Assembly: GCA_038087875.1 (NCBI GenBank)
Contig: CM075987.1
Coordinates: 26,476,001-26,540,000, forward strand
Reading direction: 5' to 3'
From: Malacoraja senta
Lineage: Eukaryota
Length of the DNA: 64,000 nt
Below are positions 2,761 to 60,932 of the stretch, in pieces. A program made the translations under genes and the position numbers. The notes beneath the pieces were generated by a model. It was given only the letters and a program-made list of their open reading frames with translations. It ran no database searches and was not told where the DNA came from. Positions within the stretch are counted from its first letter, which is position 1. Each line of letters starts with the position of its first letter.

Positions 2761-4445
2761 AATTTTATATCTATTCCAGTCAATTCCGATATATTTACCA
2801 AAAATAAAAAAATAAATGTTTTTTAAACTGGATGCTGATATTACAAATTTTATATGGGACTATAAATCCCACAGAATCCAAAGATGACATCTGTGCAAAC
2901 CTAAAGAATCTGGCGGATTATCACTCCCTCATTTTTTATATTATTACTGGGCCACAAATGTCAAAAATATGATTCACCTGTTGGACAATTCGGCCCAGCA
3001 GGTGGATTGGATAGTAATGGAGAGAGAGGATTGTTCCCCTTTTAATATAGGAGCGATCCTTCTCTCACCAACAAAAATGAAGAATACAATATACAGTAAA
3101 AATCCAATTATTCATAGTACAATTAGAATTTGGAAACAAATAAAATTAACTTTAAAATTAAGAAATCAATCACTTCTCTCACCTATAATGAATAACCCTT
3201 CGTTTAAACCTTCTATGATAGATACATCTTTTACAAACTGGGATAGATTAGGAATTAAAACGTTTGGAGATATGTATGATAATGGAAGTTTTTTAACATT
3301 TCACCAACTACAACTTAAATATAACTTGAATAGTAATCAATATTTTAAATATTTTCAAATACGTGACTATTTGAAAAAATATACACGAGAATATCAAAAT
3401 ATGTCTCCAGACCTATTAGACGAGATAATGAATATAAAAGCGGAATCAGCTAATTTAATATCATACCTATATAATACCATTTTAAACATAGAAATTCCAT
3501 CATCTGATAGGATTAGAAGAGATTGGGAACAAGAACTAGCTATAAAAATCTCGAAAGAGAGTTGGGATAAACACCTGTTATATGTGCATAAATGCTCGAT
3601 TAACGTAAGACATACTCTAATTCAATTTAAAATTTTACATAGATTATACTATTCAAAAGCTAAATTAAGTAAATTTTACCCAAATACCTCTTCTATCTGT
3701 GATAAATGTCTAACCCAAGAAGCAAATATAGCACATTCTTTTGTTTTTTGTATAAAAATCCAAAATATTTTGGAATGAAATCTTTGAAATTTTCACGAAA
3801 TTATTCAAAATAAAACTGAAACCGAATGCAGAACTGATCATTTTTGGAACAATCGAAGCCAGTTTGGAGCTGACTTCGTTTCAAAGGAATTTTCTTAATT
3901 TTGGCTTAATAACGGCAAAAAAACTGATACTGAAATTTTGGAAAAACGCTCCCACACCAACGACAAAAATGTGGACTTCTAATATGTCGGAACTGTTACA
4001 TCTAGAAGATATGAGATTCCTCTTAGCAGGTAAACCAGACCAATTCTAAAAGATTTGGCCTCCATTTATCGACATTACAAATATAGGGTGCAACAAAATG
4101 TTGATAATAAATGGTTTCAGGACCTGGCGAGGGGTGAGTAAAGATATGAAGTAGGTACATCCCTTTTATATTGTCCTATCTTATCTTACCTTTTCTCTTT
4201 TCTTTTTCCTGCTCTTGGTTTTTCCCTTTTTTTAAAACTATTTCTTGTGGTTTAGGTCCATATGGGTGTTCCTGGACAACTCTTTCAATCACTCACTTAC
4301 TATCTTTACTAACTCTTTCTATCCTTTTCTCTTATTAAAGTTTAAAATAAGAAGTGGTACAAGAAAAGTATAAACTTATGTTTATTAGAGATCACTGTAA
4401 TGTACAATACTTCTAATTAAAAAATAAAAAATACAAATAGAAATA
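2761..4445 (+). mobile_element. 5'-truncated L1-clade LINE (ORF2 C-terminus, 3' UTR, A-rich tail)
   Basis: ORF 2969-3778 contains QFKILHRLYYS and a CDKC..H..C zinc motif typical of L1 ORF2. Pyrimidine-rich UTR and A tail. TSD AAAAGTTCA at 2752-2760 and 4446-4454. Confidence 0.88.
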
Positions 4446-10021: not shown

Positions 10022-10420
10022 CAATAGACAATAGGTGCAGGAGTAGGCCATTCGGCCCTTCGAGCCAGCACCGCCATTCAATGTGATCATGGCTGATCAT
10101 CCCCAATCAGTACCCCGTTCCTGCCTTCTCCCCATATCCCCTGATTCCACTATCTTTAAGAGCCCTGTCCAGCTCTCTCTTGAAAGTATCCAGAGAACCT
10201 GCCTCCACCACCCTCTGAGGCAGAGAATTCCACACACTCACAACTCTCTGTGAGAAAAAGTGTTCCTCGTCTCCGTTCTAAATGGCTTACCCATATTCTT
10301 AAACTGTGGCCCCTGGTTCTGGACTCCCCCAACAATCAGGAACACGTTTCCTGCCTCTAGTGTGTCCAAACCTTTAATAATCTTTTATGTTTCAATGAGA
10401 AACCCTCTCATCCTTCTCAA
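10022..10420 (-). mobile_element. CR1 LINE 3' fragment
   Basis: Reverse complement of the CR1 tail (CTATTGT repeats) and the RT C-terminus. Confidence 0.8.
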
Positions 10421-10791
10421 CTTCTCATCCATCGGTATGAAGAGGTGTATCTGTCGTCAAAAAAAAATGTTTTTCCTTGCAAAGATAAAAATAATGAGAT
10501 TATTTTCCTACGATCTCCACAATACATCATACAAGTAACACACACATGTATAGTGGCATTAATCCTCCTTGAAATAATAATGCATTGTCGAATTTTTCCA
10601 TCATCAGCAAGTGAACACAATTGCACAGAATAGTCGGGTCTATTGCACAGGCTGTTTTGCTGGAATAATTTCTGCTTTCTACATTTGCTGCTAAACGCCT
10701 TTTTGCAAAAATCAGCGTTATTATTGTCATCTCCACTCGACAAAAGCGGACCGCGCGCGTTCAAAGCGACGGATGAAATTGTAATCATTAC

Positions 10792-11009
10792 CTATATATT
10801 TTATTATCTTGTTGTGTATCCTTGACGATATCTTTCCACAAAGGATAAATATCCCCTCGAATTGTGGAATGGACCCCGGTCCGATATAAGCCAATCAAAC
10901 TGCTTAGTGACATGATTCTGGGCAGCTGCAGGATTCTGGCGGAAGGTTTTACTGTTATATGGTCCCATATAAACAGCAGGTAGATGAATTCAATTAACCT
11001 CCAGTTCAT
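10792..11009 (-). CDS. BRINP1: BRINP1 (DBC1/FAM5A) first coding exon, coding part (218 nt), containing a compensating -1/+1 indel pair
   Basis: The ATG frame starts [23 protein letters not shown] and ends KIY(R). An offset frame (10938-10807) reads [44 protein letters not shown]. Together they match the BRINP1 N-terminus as I recall it ([73 protein letters not shown]). Donor AG|GTAATG at 10792/10791. Confidence 0.93.
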
Positions 11010-11048
11010 GCTTTTCTTTCAGCCACTTTCTGTTCATTCTTGCTCCAT
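10990..11048 (-). promoter_or_regulatory. Two upstream ORFs in the BRINP1 leader: MEQE* (11048-11034) and [15 protein letters not shown] (11037-10990, overlapping the main ATG out of frame)
   Basis: Read directly from the minus strand: AACATGGAGCAAGAATGAACAG...AAGCATGAAC. Regulatory function is inferred. Confidence 0.5.
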
Positions 11049-11059
11049 GTTGCGGGGTC
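11010..11059 (-). other. BRINP1: 5' UTR part (50 nt) of the BRINP1 first coding exon
   Basis: The minus strand has a polypyrimidine tract and acceptor CTCTCCTTGTTTCCCCTCTAG|GACCCC (AG at 11061-11060), 50 nt upstream of the ATG. Confidence 0.75.
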
Positions 11060-11189
11060 CTAGAGGGGAAACAAGGAGAGGTTTCGTTACAACACGACTC
11101 ACTGAGTACGCGACAGAATCCATTGTTAGACACAAATAGATGGAGTAACTCAGCGGGACAGGCAGCATCTCTGGAGAGAAGGAACGTCC

Positions 11190-11540
11190 CTGATAGGACA
11201 ATGAAATTCTTGCTTTGCTTTAGCACACCAGAACATAGTAGGCACAAATACACAACAGATCAGTGTATCCATATACCATTGTATAAATATATACACACAT
11301 GAATAAATAAACTGATAAAGTACCCAAATAAACAGATTATTGGCTATCAATGTTCAGAGTTTTGTCCGAGCCGAGTTTAATAGCCTGATGGCTGTGGGGA
11401 AGCAGCTGTTCCTGAACCTGGTCGTTGCAGTCTTCAGGCCCCTGTACCTTCTACCTGAAGGTAGCTGGGAGATGAGTGTGTGGCCCGGATGGTGTGGGTC
11501 CTTGATGATACTGCCAGCCTTTTTGAGGCAGCGACACAAA
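11190..11540 (-). mobile_element. Rex1/Babar LINE 3' fragment
   Basis: KKAGSIIKDPHHPGHTLISQLPSGRRYRGLKTATTRFRNSCFPTAIRLLN, a typical Rex1/Babar C-terminus. Confidence 0.8.
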
Positions 11541-19633: not shown

Positions 19634-19724
19634 TGTGTGTATGTGTGTGTGTGTGTGTGTGTGTATGGGTGTGTGTGTATGGGGGTGTGTGTGTGTATGG
19701 GTGTATGTGGGTGTGTGTGTATGG

Positions 19725-19766
<42 letters not shown>

Positions 19767-19818
19767 ATGTGTGTGTGTATGGGTGTGTGTGTGTGTGTGT
19801 ATGGGTGTGTGTGTGTGC

Positions 19819-19853
<35 letters not shown>

Positions 19854-20104
19854 GGTGTGTGTGTATGGGTGTGTGTGTATGGATGTGTGTGTGTATGGGT
19901 GTGTGTGCGCATGGGTGTGTGTGTGTGTATGGGTGTGTGTGTGGGTGTGTGTGTGTATGGATGTGTGTGGGTATGGGTGTGTGTGTGTGTGTGTGTGTAT
20001 GGGTGTGTGTGTGCGCGTGTGTGTGTGTATATGGGTGTGTGTGTGTGTATGGGTGTGTGTGTGTGTGTATGGGTGTGTGTGTGTGTGTATGGGTGTGTGT
20101 GTAT

Positions 20105-20151
<47 letters not shown>

Positions 20152-20250
20152 GGTGTGCGTGTGTATGGGTGTGTGTGTGGGTGTGCGCGCGCATGCGGGT
20201 GTGTGTTTGTGTAGATATGTATGTGGGTTTGTGTGTGTGTGTGTATGTAT
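19634..20250. repeat. (GT)n microsatellite punctuated by ATGG units
   Basis: Seen directly; it produces the poly-VC and poly-HT pseudo-ORFs. Confidence 0.95.
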
Positions 20251-27052: not shown

Positions 27053-27226
27053 CAAGGCAGCAACCACCACCCTGCCGCCCATACTTGCTGTGTTTCCAGA
27101 GGCACCTATCCGTTAGTGTAATGGATGTGGGAGTTATCCAATAAACTCCAGAAACACCAGCATTAAAAACTAACCCTGAGCTGGTGCCACACTGCAGAGG
27201 CGCTGTTTTTGCAGATGAGATAAGAG

Positions 27227-27670
27227 TCTTAGAGTGATACAGTGTGGAAACAGGCCCTTCGGCCCAACTTTCCCACATCGGCCAACATAGTCATTGAGAA
27301 TCTTAGAGTGATACAGTGTGGAAACAGGCCCTTCGGCCCAACTTTCCCACATCGGCCAACATAGTCATTGAGAATCTTAGAGTGATACAGTGTGGAAACA
27401 GGCCCTTCAGCCCAACTTGCCCGCATCAGCCAACATAGTCATTGAGAATCTTAGAGTGATACAGTGTGGAAACAGGCCCTTTGGCCCAACTAGTCCACAC
27501 TGGCCAACATGACCCAGCTACACTAGTCCCACCTGCCTGCGTTTGGTCCATATCCCTCCAAACCTGCCCTATCCATGTACCTGTCCAAATGTTTCTTAAA
27601 CATTACGATAGTCTTTGCCTCAAATACATCCTCCGGCAGCTCGTTCCATACACCCACCACCCTTTGTGTG
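27227..27670 (-). repeat. 74-bp tandem repeat of a CR1 3' terminus (three units, plus a fourth that runs into the CR1 body)
   Basis: TCTTAGAGTGATACAGTGTGGAAACAGGCCC starts at 27227, 27301, 27375 and 27449. Confidence 0.9.
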
Positions 27671-36323: not shown

Positions 36324-36467
36324 TCTCAATTTTTTGCAACGAGACAGCAACATACTGACTCCCCATTTCCAGCTCAAAGCCGCCCCCGAATATATTCCAA
36401 TTAACTCGCAAGACGACCCAACTGTTTACACGTTACAGCATTCTGCTGCCAAGAACTCTGATCTACA

Positions 36468-37101
36468 GTGACGATATCTGTAAACAATGTTGTTTTTGGC
36501 GCGAAATTGGATACTGGCGCGAATGTCAACACAATGTCAATCAACCTTTTTAACAAGATTAGAGCTAACGAGCCACTTGTCAAGGACGCGTCCACTTTAC
36601 ATGCTTTTGGTGGGGAGGTGCTAGTTCCTCTGGACAAAACCAACTTGAAATGTGTACTGAAGAAAACAACGAGGGAATTGACCTTCTATGTGTTGAACTT
36701 TAATTCAGTTACTCTGCTTGGCAATCGTGCCTGTCAGGAACTGGGGCTGATTTCCTTTGATAAGACTGTCCACAAACTGCAAGTTTCTTTTGATCCACTG
36801 AATGAATTCCCTGGTCTCTTCGACAACAACCTAGGCAAGTTGCCTGTGCCCCACAAGATTATTACTGACCCCGATGTGACACCCGTAATCCGAGCCCCGC
36901 ACCGATTGTCATTTGCCATGACTGACAGGGTTCACTCTATGCTGAAGGACATGGTCTCCAAAGGCGTAATTGAATTAGTCAGCGACCCCACCGGCTGGGT
37001 CTCAACCATGATTGCCACAGTCAAGAAGGGAAAGGATGAAATCCGCCTGTGCATTAATCCCAAAGACCTGAACACTGTCATTAAGCGCCCACACCATCCC
37101 A
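36468..37101 (+). pseudogene. Gypsy protease and N-terminal RT remnant
   Basis: LDTGA, LLGNRACQELGLI, GVIE..PTGWVS, RLCINPKDLN. Confidence 0.85.
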
Positions 37102-38188
37102 CTTCTGACACCATGTAAATTACTTCAGACTGTATAAGACTTACACACATCTTTAATCAGCACAGTAACTTGGCAGCATTACAAAACAAGGTGTTGTCAG
37201 TACATCCTAGCTGCTTCAACTAACGGTGCTGGGAATGGGCGTTAGTATAAATGTTATAATGGGGTGGAGTTAGTGATGCTGGCTAAGTGTGATTGATTCA
37301 CAAGCATCATCAATCTACATCAACTACTTCCTCTGGCAGTTTGTTCCATACACCCACCACCCTTTGTGTGAAAAAGGTACCCCTCAGAATCCTATTAAAC
37401 CTATGTCCTCTGGTTCTTGATCCCCCTACTCTGGGCACGAGACTCTGCGTCCACCCGATCTATTCTTCTAATGATTTTGTACACCTCTATCTTCTTCTTG
37501 CGTATGGCGTGCACAGCCTAAAGTTGTAGAGCAAGGATACACATCCAGGCCAGGACAGCATCAGTTACTGGGTGGGTGGCTTTGATGCCCCCAAGGAAAA
37601 AGCCTCAGTGAGCGGTCATTCACAAGAACACCTCTATAAGATCACCCCTCATCCATGGAATAGAGTCCCAGCATGTTCAACCTCTCCCTATAGCTCAGAC
37701 CTTCAAGTCCTGGCAACATCCTCGGGAATCTTCTCTGCACCCTCTCCAACATCCTTCCTCCAACACGGTGCCCAGAAATGAACACAATACTCTAGATGCA
37801 GCCTCACCAACGATATATACAACTGCAACATGACCTCCCAACTTCTATACTCAATATTCTGACTGGTGAAGGCCAATGTGAAGGGATATGATGAGGTTGT
37901 GATGGAAATCTGACCCAAAGCAGAGAAACAGACCCATCATCTGTCAGGAAGTCACCCAAGGTCAATGCTATTGTTGATCTGACAACTTCCATTGTCAACT
38001 TCTATTTTGTCAAAACAAATTCAATATCTTTTACCATCATGTCCTTTCACTGAAGGAAACTTGATTCATAATCACTTCTGACCAGACACCAATGCACTCC
38101 AATAAAATGGTCATTTTCGCCAGGTTTCGTGGTTCATATCCAAAGATCTGCATCAATTTTTCAGAAATCTTACGTTGAAGAACAGATG

Positions 38189-50137: not shown

Positions 50138-50637
50138 TGTATGCGTGCTTGCATGTGTGTGCATGTGTGCGTGCATGCGCGTGTGTGTGTGTGTGAGTGT
50201 GTGCCTTGTGTGTGTGTGTGTGTGTGTGTGTGCGTGCATGTGCGTGCGTATGTGTGTGTGTGTGTGTGCGTGTGTTTGCGTGCATGTAGGTGCGTGTGTA
50301 TGTGTGCGTGCGTGTGTATGTGTGCGTGCGTGTGTATGTGTGCGCGCGTGTGTATGTGTACGTGTGTTTGCGTGCGTGTGTTTGCGTGCATGTAGGTGCG
50401 TGTGTATGTGTGCGTGCGTGTGTACGTGTGCGTGCCTGTGTATGTGTACGTGTGTTTGCGTGCGTGTGTTTGCGTGCATGTAGGTGCGTGTGTATGTGTG
50501 CATGCGTGTGTATGTGTGCGTGCGTGTGTATGTGTACGTGTGTTTGCGTGAGTGTGTGCGCGCGCATGTGTTTGCATGTATGCATGCATGTGCACGTGTT
50601 TGTGTCCATGCGTGTGCGTGTGCGTGCATGTGCGTGT
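50138..50637. repeat. Complex GT/GC/AT alternating purine-pyrimidine microsatellite
   Basis: Seen directly; it has higher-order units such as GCATGTAGGTGCGTGTGTATG. Confidence 0.95.
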
Positions 50638-60177: not shown

Positions 60178-60932
60178 GTGTGTGTGTGCGTGTGCGTGTG
60201 CGTGTGTGCGTGTGTGTGTGTGTGTGTGCGCGTGCGTGCGCGTGTGTGTGTGTGTGTGTGCGCGTGTGTGTGTGTGTGCGTGTGTGTGTGCGCGTGTGTG
60301 TGTGTGTGTGCGTGTGCGTGTGTGTGTGTGTGCGCGTGCGTGCGCGTGTGTGTGTGTGTGTGTGCGTGTGTGTGTGTGTGTGCGTGTGTGTGTGTGTGTG
60401 CGCGTGTGTGTGCGCGTGTGTGTGTGTGTGCGCGTGCGTGCGCGTGTGTGCGTGTGTGTGTGTGTGTGTGTGCGTGTGTGTGTGTGCGCGTGTGTGTGCG
60501 CGTGTGTGTGTGTGTGTGTGCGTGTGTGTGTGTGTGTGCGTGTGTGTGTGTGCGCGTGCGTGCGCGTGTGTGTGTGTGTGTGTGCGTGTGTGTGTGTGTG
60601 CGTGTGTGTGCGTGTGTGTGTGTGCGTGTGCGTGTGTGTGTGTGTGCGCGTGCGTGCGCGTGTGTGCGTGTGTGTGCGTGTGTGTGTGTGCGCGTGTGTG
60701 TGCGCGTGTGTGTGTGCGTGTGCGTGCGCGTGCGTGCGCGTGTGTGTGTGTGTGTGCGTGTGTGTGTGTGTGTGTGCGTGTGTGTGTGTGTGCGCGTGTG
60801 TGTGTGTGTGCGCGTGTGTGTGCGCGTGTGTGTGTGCGTGTGCGTGCGCGTGCGTGCGCGTGTGTGTGTGTGTGTGCGTGTGTGTGTGTGTGTGTGTGCG
60901 TGTGTGTGTGTGTGCGCGTGTGTGTGTGTGTG
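60178..60932. repeat. ~750-bp (GT)n/(GC)n alternating microsatellite, apparently inside a MITE-like element that ends with a TIR near 61005-61019
   Basis: Seen directly; AGTGGGACAGGCCCT lies downstream. Confidence 0.95.

What the first reader, a model, noticed from the sequence alone, without database searches (positions are those of the whole stretch)
10792..11009. BRINP1 first coding exon carries a compensating frameshift pair that puts 44 conserved codons out of frame
Seen: reading from the ATG at 11009 (minus strand), the frame matches BRINP1 for 23 residues ([23 protein letters not shown]). It then turns into unrelated sequence ([46 protein letters not shown]) and returns to KIY(R) just before the GT donor. 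The conserved BRINP1 peptide [44 protein letters not shown] is intact but offset, at 10938-10807, and ends in TAA at 10806-10804. Adding one base near 10940/10941 (TCC GCC AG to TCC CGC CAG) and removing one A at 10804/10805 (AGA TAA TAAA to AGA TAT AAA) gives a gap-free match to BRINP1 residues 1-73 as I recall them. The net indel is zero, so the coding length (218 nt), phase and splice sites are unchanged, there is no premature stop, and a gene predictor would call the exon normal. Inference: either the protein has residues ~24-69 replaced between the signal peptide and the MACPF-like region, or the two indels are sequence or assembly errors, or (least likely) recoding or editing restores the frame. 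The offset frame shows no decay, so the event is very recent or artefactual. I see no canonical X_XXY_YYZ slippery heptamer at the first site.
Basis: partly seen in the sequence, partly recalled or inferred. Interest (0 to 1): 0.9.

Follow-up and report, generated by a model that had tools for sequence, protein, structure and literature searches.

The report
Assembly indel errors in skate BRINP1
The apparent pair of compensating frameshifts in the first coding exon of BRINP1 in this skate-like genome is almost certainly two single-base homopolymer mistakes in a draft assembly, not a change in the animal's protein.

Summary
On the minus strand, 11009-10792 reads BRINP1 residues 1-23 in frame. 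It then reads 46 unrelated codons, while the conserved 44-residue BRINP1 peptide sits intact in another frame, and it returns to frame before the GT donor. The biology is not supported. Contigs of four public runs were laid on the exon. A base is put in behind 10940 in 4 of 4 runs, and one base is left out at 10804 in 3 of 3 runs that cover it. That is exactly the canonical frame. The closest run (X1) differs from the window by 5 substitutions and 5 single-base indels over 752 nt. Wherever a second organism covers the site, it agrees with X1 against the window at all 5 indels, and all 5 lie in homopolymer runs. The same assembly has a third, uncompensated homopolymer frame break in another BRINP1 exon, although the 500 codons after it are about 99% identical to Amblyraja radiata BRINP1. 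The locus is built of 30-90 kb pieces joined by 200-N gaps, and exon 2 lies on the wrong side of exon 1. Verdict: consensus errors in the assembly. Caveat: the source animal's own reads were not identified.

The parts
10792..11009 (-). Coding part of the first coding exon of BRINP1 (residues 1-73; the last two bases begin codon 73).
   Evidence: It matches P0122 (Amblyraja radiata BRINP1) in two frames.
11010..11063 (-). 5' untranslated part of the same exon. An AG acceptor lies at 11061-11060, so the exon starts at about 11059-11063.
   Evidence: A 2942-nt contig of run X15 lies only on 10805-11063 (its positions 556-815). The DNA contig of the same organism (X3) runs on into both flanks. The X15 contig is therefore read as a spliced mRNA, which is an inference (tables 2 and 8).
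10790..10791 (-). GT splice donor.
10940..10942 (.). First break. The assembly has a 2-base run (GG on +, CC on the coding strand), and the laid contigs have one base more.
   Evidence: table 4: 'put in behind G' at 10940 at full depth in X1, X2, X3 and X15 (4 of 4). Context. The extra base gives the R24 codon of P0122.
10804..10805 (.). Second break. The assembly has TT on + (AA on the coding strand), and the laid contigs have one base fewer.
   Evidence: table 4: 'left out 1' at 10804 in X1 (depth 23.1 of 40.3), X2 (23 of 23) and X3 (9.37 of 9.37). The X15 contig stops at 10805. Context. Removal gives the Y69 codon of P0122.
10807..10938 (-). The 44 conserved BRINP1 codons (residues 25-68) that the two breaks put out of frame.
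10763..10765 (.). Intronic A3 run that is one base short in the window compared with X1, X2 and X3.
   Evidence: table 4 (10762, put in behind A). Context.
10669..10671 (.). Intronic T3 run that is one base short in the window compared with X1 and X2. X3 has no cover there.
   Evidence: table 4 (10668). Context.
10459..10467 (.). Intronic A9 run that is one base short in the window compared with X1 and X3. The long X2 contig starts only at 10472.
   Evidence: tables 4 and 8 (10458). Context.

Best explanation
The two frame breaks are consensus errors of the assembly. One base is missing from a short C run near 10940/10941, and one base too many was called in an A run at 10804/10805 (coding strand). 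The animal's real exon most likely encodes the ordinary BRINP1 N-terminus, identical over residues 1-73 to Amblyraja radiata BRINP1. The pair looks compensating only by coincidence: a locally high density of homopolymer-length errors put two of opposite sign into one 218-nt exon, and the alternative frame of this gene is poor in stops. Shown here: independent contigs carry the canonical frame, the window alone differs at five homopolymer sites, the same gene has a third break, and the locus is of draft quality. Inferred: the cause is miscalling of homopolymer length in noisy long reads with incomplete polishing.
For: (1), table 4. A base is put in behind 10940 in 4 of 4 runs at full depth, and one base is left out at 10804 in 3 of 3 runs that cover it. 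These runs come from three differently coded organisms.

(2), tables 3, 4 and 8. The nearest run, X1, gives one 755-nt contig on 10403-11154 with 5 other letters and 5 gaps, all of them listed. At all 5 gap sites at least one further organism agrees with X1 against the window. X1 has no indel of its own. Only 1 of the 5 substitutions (10658) is shared with another organism. The window's own lineage therefore shows 5 indels to 1 substitution. With an assumed natural indel share of 1 in 9, P is about 9e-5. A 5:0 split of indels between the two lineages has P 0.03.

(3). All 5 sites lie in homopolymer runs (A9, T3, A3, TT, GG on the + strand). Four are undercalls and one is an overcall.

(4). There are no substitutions between the window and X1 within the exon.

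(5). In the same assembly the exon for residues 227-307 is split between two frames at a G4 run where the conserved frame needs G5 (C11:26407007-26407010). This break is uncompensated and the exon is 236 nt. Even so, residues 382-761 are 99.2% identical to P0122 with no stop.

(6). The exon-1 piece is a 90,337-base contig between 200-N gaps, the next piece is 30,487 bases, and the exon for residues 73-137 lies 103 kb on the wrong side of exon 1. This is a draft-quality locus.

(7). No deposited protein holds the replaced peptide.

(8) The coincidence is mild. From the indel density of the flanks alone (3 in 482 nt), P(2 or more in 218 nt) is 0.39. In this gene's other exons, 200 of 368 windows of 46 codons are open in the same alternative frame.

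(9) Homopolymer-length errors are described as the commonest residual errors of long-read assemblies (abstract of PMC8812927). They are described as causing frameshifts that pseudogenize genes (abstract of PMC12007338). Both were seen in the listing.
Against: The runs are coded, and none is shown to come from the animal or even the species of the assembly. X1 has 4 substitutions of its own in 752 nt, so it is another individual or a sister species. Strictly, then, the indels could be private to the sequenced animal.

At 10804 only 23.1 of 40.3 depth units in X1 carry the gap. A second, unlisted X1 record overlaps that place without it. It adds depth to the single bin 10770-10806 only, in an AT-rich stretch, so it is short and probably unrelated, but I could not see it.

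Logan contigs drop rare variants.

The error density is uneven. The 1140-nt last exon has no break at all.

That two errors cancel and leave an open frame is a coincidence of roughly 1 in 10 to 1 in 20 by my estimates. A real, selected compensated allele would show this by necessity.

The sequencing technology of the assembly is unknown to me.
Confidence: 0.93

Rival explanations
1. This is a real, very recent pair of compensating frameshift mutations in the sequenced animal or its species. BRINP1 would then carry 46 new residues between the signal peptide and the rest of the protein.
For: The frame is restored exactly, with no stop in between and with length, phase and donor unchanged. X1 is not proven to be the same species. 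Real compensatory pairs do exist in vertebrates (PMC8935012, abstract passage seen).
Against: Of the runs that cover each site, 4 of 4 (10940) and 3 of 3 (10804) carry the canonical state. Three more window-only homopolymer indels lie in the adjoining intron, and the window lineage shows 5 indels to 1 substitution. A third, uncompensated break further down the gene would make the compensation pointless. The replaced segment is nearly invariant from sharks to birds. The offset frame shows no decay at all. In the cited survey only 6 of 624 candidate gene pairs passed quality filtering (PMC8935012 abstract).
Confidence: 0.03
2. BRINP1 is a very young pseudogene in this lineage: three real frameshifts, two of which happen to cancel.
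For: There are three frame breaks in one gene. Exon 2 is displaced relative to exon 1 in the scaffold.
Against: There is no stop or other damage in the remaining coding sequence. Only about five amino-acid differences from Amblyraja radiata were seen over the aligned exons. The window has zero substitutions against X1 in the exon. All three breaks are homopolymer-length changes. The exon displacement coincides with 200-N scaffold joins. BRINP1 is kept in every elasmobranch listed.
Confidence: 0.02
3. The genomic indels are real, and the frame is restored at expression by two programmed ribosomal frameshifts or by insertion/deletion RNA editing.
For: Only that the conserved frame is intact.
Against: No slippery heptamer lies at the first site (by eye). 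Two opposite shifts within 135 nt would be needed. Relatives encode the peptide in one frame in DNA (X1, X2, X3) and in a spliced transcript contig (X15), so no such mechanism is ancestral. Insertion/deletion editing of nuclear mRNA is not known in vertebrates (my own knowledge, not tested).
Confidence: 0.005

Closest known systems
Homopolymer-length consensus errors in long-read genome assemblies
   Same: The changes are single-base length changes confined to homopolymer runs. Indels far outnumber substitutions. The errors cluster in a locus made of short contigs. They produce frameshifts in otherwise perfectly conserved exons, and independent read-derived contigs disagree with the assembly. 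The literature describes these as the commonest residual errors and as a cause of apparent pseudogenes (abstracts of PMC8812927 and PMC12007338, seen in the listing).
   Different: Here two errors happen to cancel within one exon and leave an open frame, so the usual warning signs (a stop, a changed length) are absent. The sequencing platform of this assembly is not known to me.
Pairs of mutually compensatory frameshifting mutations (pCFMs) in vertebrate genes (PMC8935012)
   Same: The formal pattern is the same: a -1 and a +1 indel a short distance apart, with the frame restored and the segment between them read in another frame.
   Different: A genuine pCFM is present in the organism's DNA and is usually shared by a clade. 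Here the closest independent contigs and two relatives lack both indels, and the gene has a further uncompensated break. That paper's abstract reports 6 of 624 candidates surviving quality filters.
BRINP1 (BMP/retinoic acid-inducible neural-specific protein 1, also called DBC1) first coding exon
   Same: Residues 1-23 and 25-68 are identical to the Amblyraja radiata protein. The exon ends at the same place in the protein as the next exon's match begins (residue 73). The remaining exons lie on the same contig and strand.
   Different: Only the two single-base differences, which are attributed to the assembly.

Membership tests
BRINP1 orthologue, first coding exon | The N-terminal sequence matches BRINP1 of related species. 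| tested here: met
   23 of 23 and 46 of 48 residues are identical to P0122 in two frames, E 5e-34. 116 of 116 candidates scored at E<=0.01.
BRINP1 orthologue, first coding exon | The remaining BRINP1 exons lie nearby on the same strand. | tested here: met
   Exons for residues 73-761 were all found on C11, minus strand, within 200 kb. The exon for residues 73-137 is out of order across scaffold gaps.
Assembly homopolymer indel error | Independent read data disagree with the assembly at the site. | tested here: met
   Site 10940: 4 of 4 runs. Site 10804: 3 of 3 runs that cover it. None of these runs is proven to be from the assembled individual.
Assembly homopolymer indel error | The site lies in a homopolymer run and the change is one unit of run length. 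| tested here: met
   5 of 5 window-only indels, and also the third exon break, G4 against the needed G5.
Assembly homopolymer indel error | There is an excess of indels over substitutions, on the assembly's side only. | tested here: met
   Window lineage: 5 indels to 1 substitution. X1 lineage: 0 indels to 4 substitutions (statistics).
Assembly homopolymer indel error | The raw reads of the assembled individual show the correct run length. | not testable with these tools
Real compensatory frameshift pair (pCFM) | The reading frame is restored without a stop between the two indels. | tested here: met
Real compensatory frameshift pair (pCFM) | Both indels are present in independent DNA of the species or clade. 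| tested here: not met
   They are absent from every contig that covers them in X1, X2, X3 and X15. Whether X1 is the same species is unknown.
Real compensatory frameshift pair (pCFM) | The rest of the gene stays intact, so that compensation has a purpose. | tested here: not met
   An uncompensated break lies in the exon for residues 227-307.
Programmed ribosomal frameshifting | A slippery heptamer (X_XXY_YYZ) lies at the shift site. | tested here: not met
   The codons around the first site were read. No pair fits the pattern.
Programmed ribosomal frameshifting | The two-frame arrangement is conserved in relatives. | tested here: not met
   Relatives encode the segment in one frame.

The most novel reading that the evidence does not exclude
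The sequenced skate, or its species, really carries the -1/+1 pair. It would then make a BRINP1 whose 45 most conserved N-terminal residues are replaced by 46 unrelated ones, or BRINP1 is being lost in this lineage. That would be a natural knock-out or replacement allele of a neural gene otherwise nearly invariant from sharks to birds.
Probability: 0.04. Interest if true: 0.5.

Novelty: not a real feature. Interest (0 to 1): 0.04.

Why it matters
As biology it does not matter: the exon is an ordinary BRINP1 exon. As quality control it does. This assembly carries homopolymer-length errors at a locally high density: 5 in 700 unique bases here and 3 within one gene's coding sequence. It also carries scaffold order errors at 200-N joins. 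Frameshifts, apparent pseudogenes, recoding candidates and odd exon orders seen elsewhere in this genome should be presumed artefacts until they are checked against reads. The case also shows that a cancelling pair of errors can pass the usual filters (no stop, length and phase unchanged). Frame-aware comparison with an orthologue is what reveals it.

Tried and rejected
- **Pfam on the two peptides:** both the in-frame and the offset peptide gave 0 families, because they are too short and lie outside the domain models.
- **Earlier notes of this scan:** none exist for this genome.
- **RNA evidence for the window's own organism:** no RNA holder is listed. The one transcript-like contig (X15) belongs to another coded organism, so DNA against RNA in the same animal, which is the editing test, could not be done.
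- **Second copy in the assembly:** a search of the own assembly for a second copy or haplotig of the exon found only the window's copy (1 match).
- **BRINP paralogues:** a search of the own assembly with Pfam PF19052, meant to widen the census of frame breaks, returned only the two BRINP1 exons already known (2 matches from 5 candidates). No wider error rate was obtained.
- **Other coding sequence in the window:** of 41 stop-to-stop ORFs of 130 aa or more, I scanned 10. Only two gave weak, below-threshold transposon hits, zf-RVT and gag-asp_proteas. Nothing was usable.
- **Rfam:** 0 matches in the window.
- **Composition-only estimate of an open shifted frame:** it gave 0.045. I set it aside in favour of the empirical count in this gene's own exons, 200 of 368 windows.
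- **Programmed frameshifting and RNA editing:** considered and rejected for the reasons given under the rival explanations.

Full report
**The observation.** The minus strand of 11150-10700 was read and translated in all three frames.
- From the ATG at 11009, frame 1 gives [23 protein letters not shown]. It then gives 46 residues that match nothing, then KIY and two bases before the GT at 10791-10790. There is no stop, and the length is 218 nt.
- The third frame holds [44 protein letters not shown] at 10938-10807 and then TAA TAA.

**What the two frames match.**
- The offset 44 residues found 116 proteins at E<=0.01 among 116 candidates. Nearly all of the named ones are BRINP1, from sharks to mammals, and the best is 89% identical.
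- The in-frame 72 residues found a single protein among 12 candidates, and only through the first 23 residues. Nobody has deposited the replaced peptide.
- The 90% cluster of the best hit holds elasmobranch BRINP1 proteins (15 of 32 members were listed).
- The N-terminus of the Amblyraja radiata protein P0122 equals the window's frame-1 residues 1-23, one R, the 44 offset residues, one Y, and then KIYR (tblastn, E 5e-34).
- The window is therefore the first coding exon of BRINP1 in a skate very close to Amblyraja. The assembly departs from the expected exon by one base missing at the first break and one base extra at the second.

**Independent reads.** A search for public runs holding 10600-11300 listed 20 holders from 13 studies. 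One of them (X1, organism A) holds 0.64 of the sampled words. The others hold about a third, which is roughly the share of the exon. No RNA holder was listed. Contigs of X1, X2, X3 and X15 were laid on 10400-11500 at 90% likeness.
- Table 4 lists 'put in behind G' at 10940 at full depth in all four runs.
- Table 4 lists 'left out 1' at 10804 in X1 (23.1 of 40.3), X2 (23 of 23) and X3 (9.37 of 9.37). The X15 contig ends at 10805 and does not cover the site.
- X15 is a 2942-nt contig that lies only on 10805-11063, while the DNA contig of the same coded organism (X3) continues into both flanks. I therefore read X15 as a spliced BRINP1 transcript of a relative. That is an inference, and the tool itself guesses 'probably DNA'.

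**Is X1 the same animal?** It cannot be told.
- Its 755-nt contig (10403-11154) differs from the window by 5 substitutions and 5 single-base gaps. All ten are listed, so the list for X1 is complete (tables 3, 4 and 8).
- Four of the five substitutions are X1's own: X2 and X3 agree with the window where they cover. X1 is therefore another individual or a sister species.

**The pattern of differences.**
- At all five gap sites (10458, 10668, 10762, 10804, 10940) at least one further organism sides with X1 against the window.
- X1 has no indel of its own.
- Only one substitution (10658) is window-specific.
- The window's lineage thus shows 5 indels to 1 substitution, and X1's shows 0 to 4.
- With an assumed natural indel share of one in nine, five or more indels among six events has P about 9e-5. 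The 5:0 split has P 0.03.
- All five sites are homopolymer runs (A9, T3, A3, TT and GG on the + strand). Four are one base short and one is one base long.
- Within the exon there is no substitution between the window and X1.
- This is the signature of consensus errors in noisy long reads, not of evolution. Homopolymer-length errors are described as the commonest residual error of long-read assemblies, and as a cause of frameshifts that pseudogenize genes. I saw this only in the abstracts of PMC8812927 and PMC12007338, in the listing.

**The rest of the gene in the same assembly.** The window is G000:C11:26476001-26540000 in an assembly of 1.94 Gb and 6182 contigs. The exon occurs once. A search of the assembly with P0122 found all the other exons on the minus strand of C11.
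- The exon for residues 227-307 is split between two frames. The assembly has a G4 run where the conserved frame needs G5 (C11:26407007-26407010). The exon is 236 nt and the break is not compensated.
- Residues 382-761 are nevertheless 99.2% identical to P0122 over 1140 nt without a stop. Over all aligned exons I count about five amino-acid differences.
- A gene with three real frameshifts and no other damage is not credible. Three homopolymer miscalls are.
- The last exon's clean 1140 nt also shows that the error density is uneven, and I report that as a point against a uniformly bad assembly.

**Draft quality of the locus.**
- The exon for residues 73-137 lies at 26589846-26590043. That is 103 kb upstream of exon 1 in the direction of transcription, so the order reads 2-1-3-...-8.
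- Runs of exactly 200 N lie at 26466856-26467055, 26557393-26557592 and 26588080-26588279.
- The exon-1 piece is therefore a 90,337-base contig, the next piece is 30,487 bases, and exon 2 sits on a further piece.
- Wrongly ordered pieces in the scaffold explain the arrangement. I did not test a real rearrangement.

**How odd is a cancelling pair?**
- From the flank density alone (3 indels in 482 nt), two or more errors in a 218-nt exon has P 0.39.
- A composition-only estimate of an open 46-codon shifted frame is 0.045. In this gene's own other exons, 200 of 368 such windows in the same alternative frame are open.
- With opposite signs required as well, the coincidence is of the order of one in ten to one in twenty. 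That is unremarkable for a scan that picks out the cases that look clean.
- In a published survey of compensatory frameshift pairs, 624 candidate genes shrank to six after quality filtering (PMC8935012, abstract passage seen).

**Rivals.**
- A real compensated allele (about 3%) or a very young pseudogene (about 2%) stays open only because the assembled individual's own reads were not seen.
- One unlisted X1 record overlaps 10804 without the gap. It adds depth to the single bin 10770-10806 only, in an AT-rich stretch, and I could not inspect it.
- Recoding or editing (below 1%) has nothing in its favour. There is no slippery heptamer at the first site. Two opposite shifts would be needed. Relatives encode the segment in one frame in DNA and in the transcript-like contig.

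**Verdict.** The sequence observation is confirmed. The feature is an assembly artefact (confidence 0.93). It is not novel, and its interest is low except as a warning about this genome.

Noticed in passing
G000:C11:26407007-26407010 (L005:1656-1659), outside the window: There is a third BRINP1 frame break in the same assembly. The exon for residues 227-307 has a G4 run (coding strand) where the conserved frame needs G5. The exon is 236 nt and the break is uncompensated.
   Followed up: yes
G000:C11:26589846-26590043 against window 10792-11009; 200-N gaps at C11:26466856-26467055, 26557393-26557592 and 26588080-26588279: The BRINP1 exon for residues 73-137 lies 103 kb upstream of the first coding exon, so the order is 2-1-3...8, all on the minus strand. 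The pieces are separated by 200-N scaffold joins, so a scaffolding order error is the likely cause.
   Followed up: partly
window 11103-11500: A very high-copy interspersed repeat lies directly upstream of the exon. The summed contig depth is 1e5 to 5e7 in all four runs laid, against about 10-45 on the exon. Hundreds of contigs break off at 11141 and 11184 (tables 2 and 7). The family was not identified.
   Followed up: no
window 19634-20248 and 60178-60932: Long (TG)n and (GT)n microsatellites of about 300 and 380 units make these stretches open in all six frames.
   Followed up: no
window 27223-27510 and 50157-50632: A 74-nt tandem repeat (3.9 copies, 93% matches) and a GT-rich minisatellite with periods of 18, 88 and 106.
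   Followed up: no
window 2888-3778 (+) and 36462-37118 (+): Open frames with weak, below-threshold Pfam hits to zf-RVT (E 0.005) and gag-asp_proteas (E 0.006). They are probably decayed retroelements.
   Followed up: no
window 10870 and 10924: These are the only substitutions within the exon among the relatives laid. 10924 A>G occurs in X2, X3 and X15, and 10870 T>C in X2. The exon is nearly identical at the nucleotide level across at least three coded organisms.
   Followed up: no
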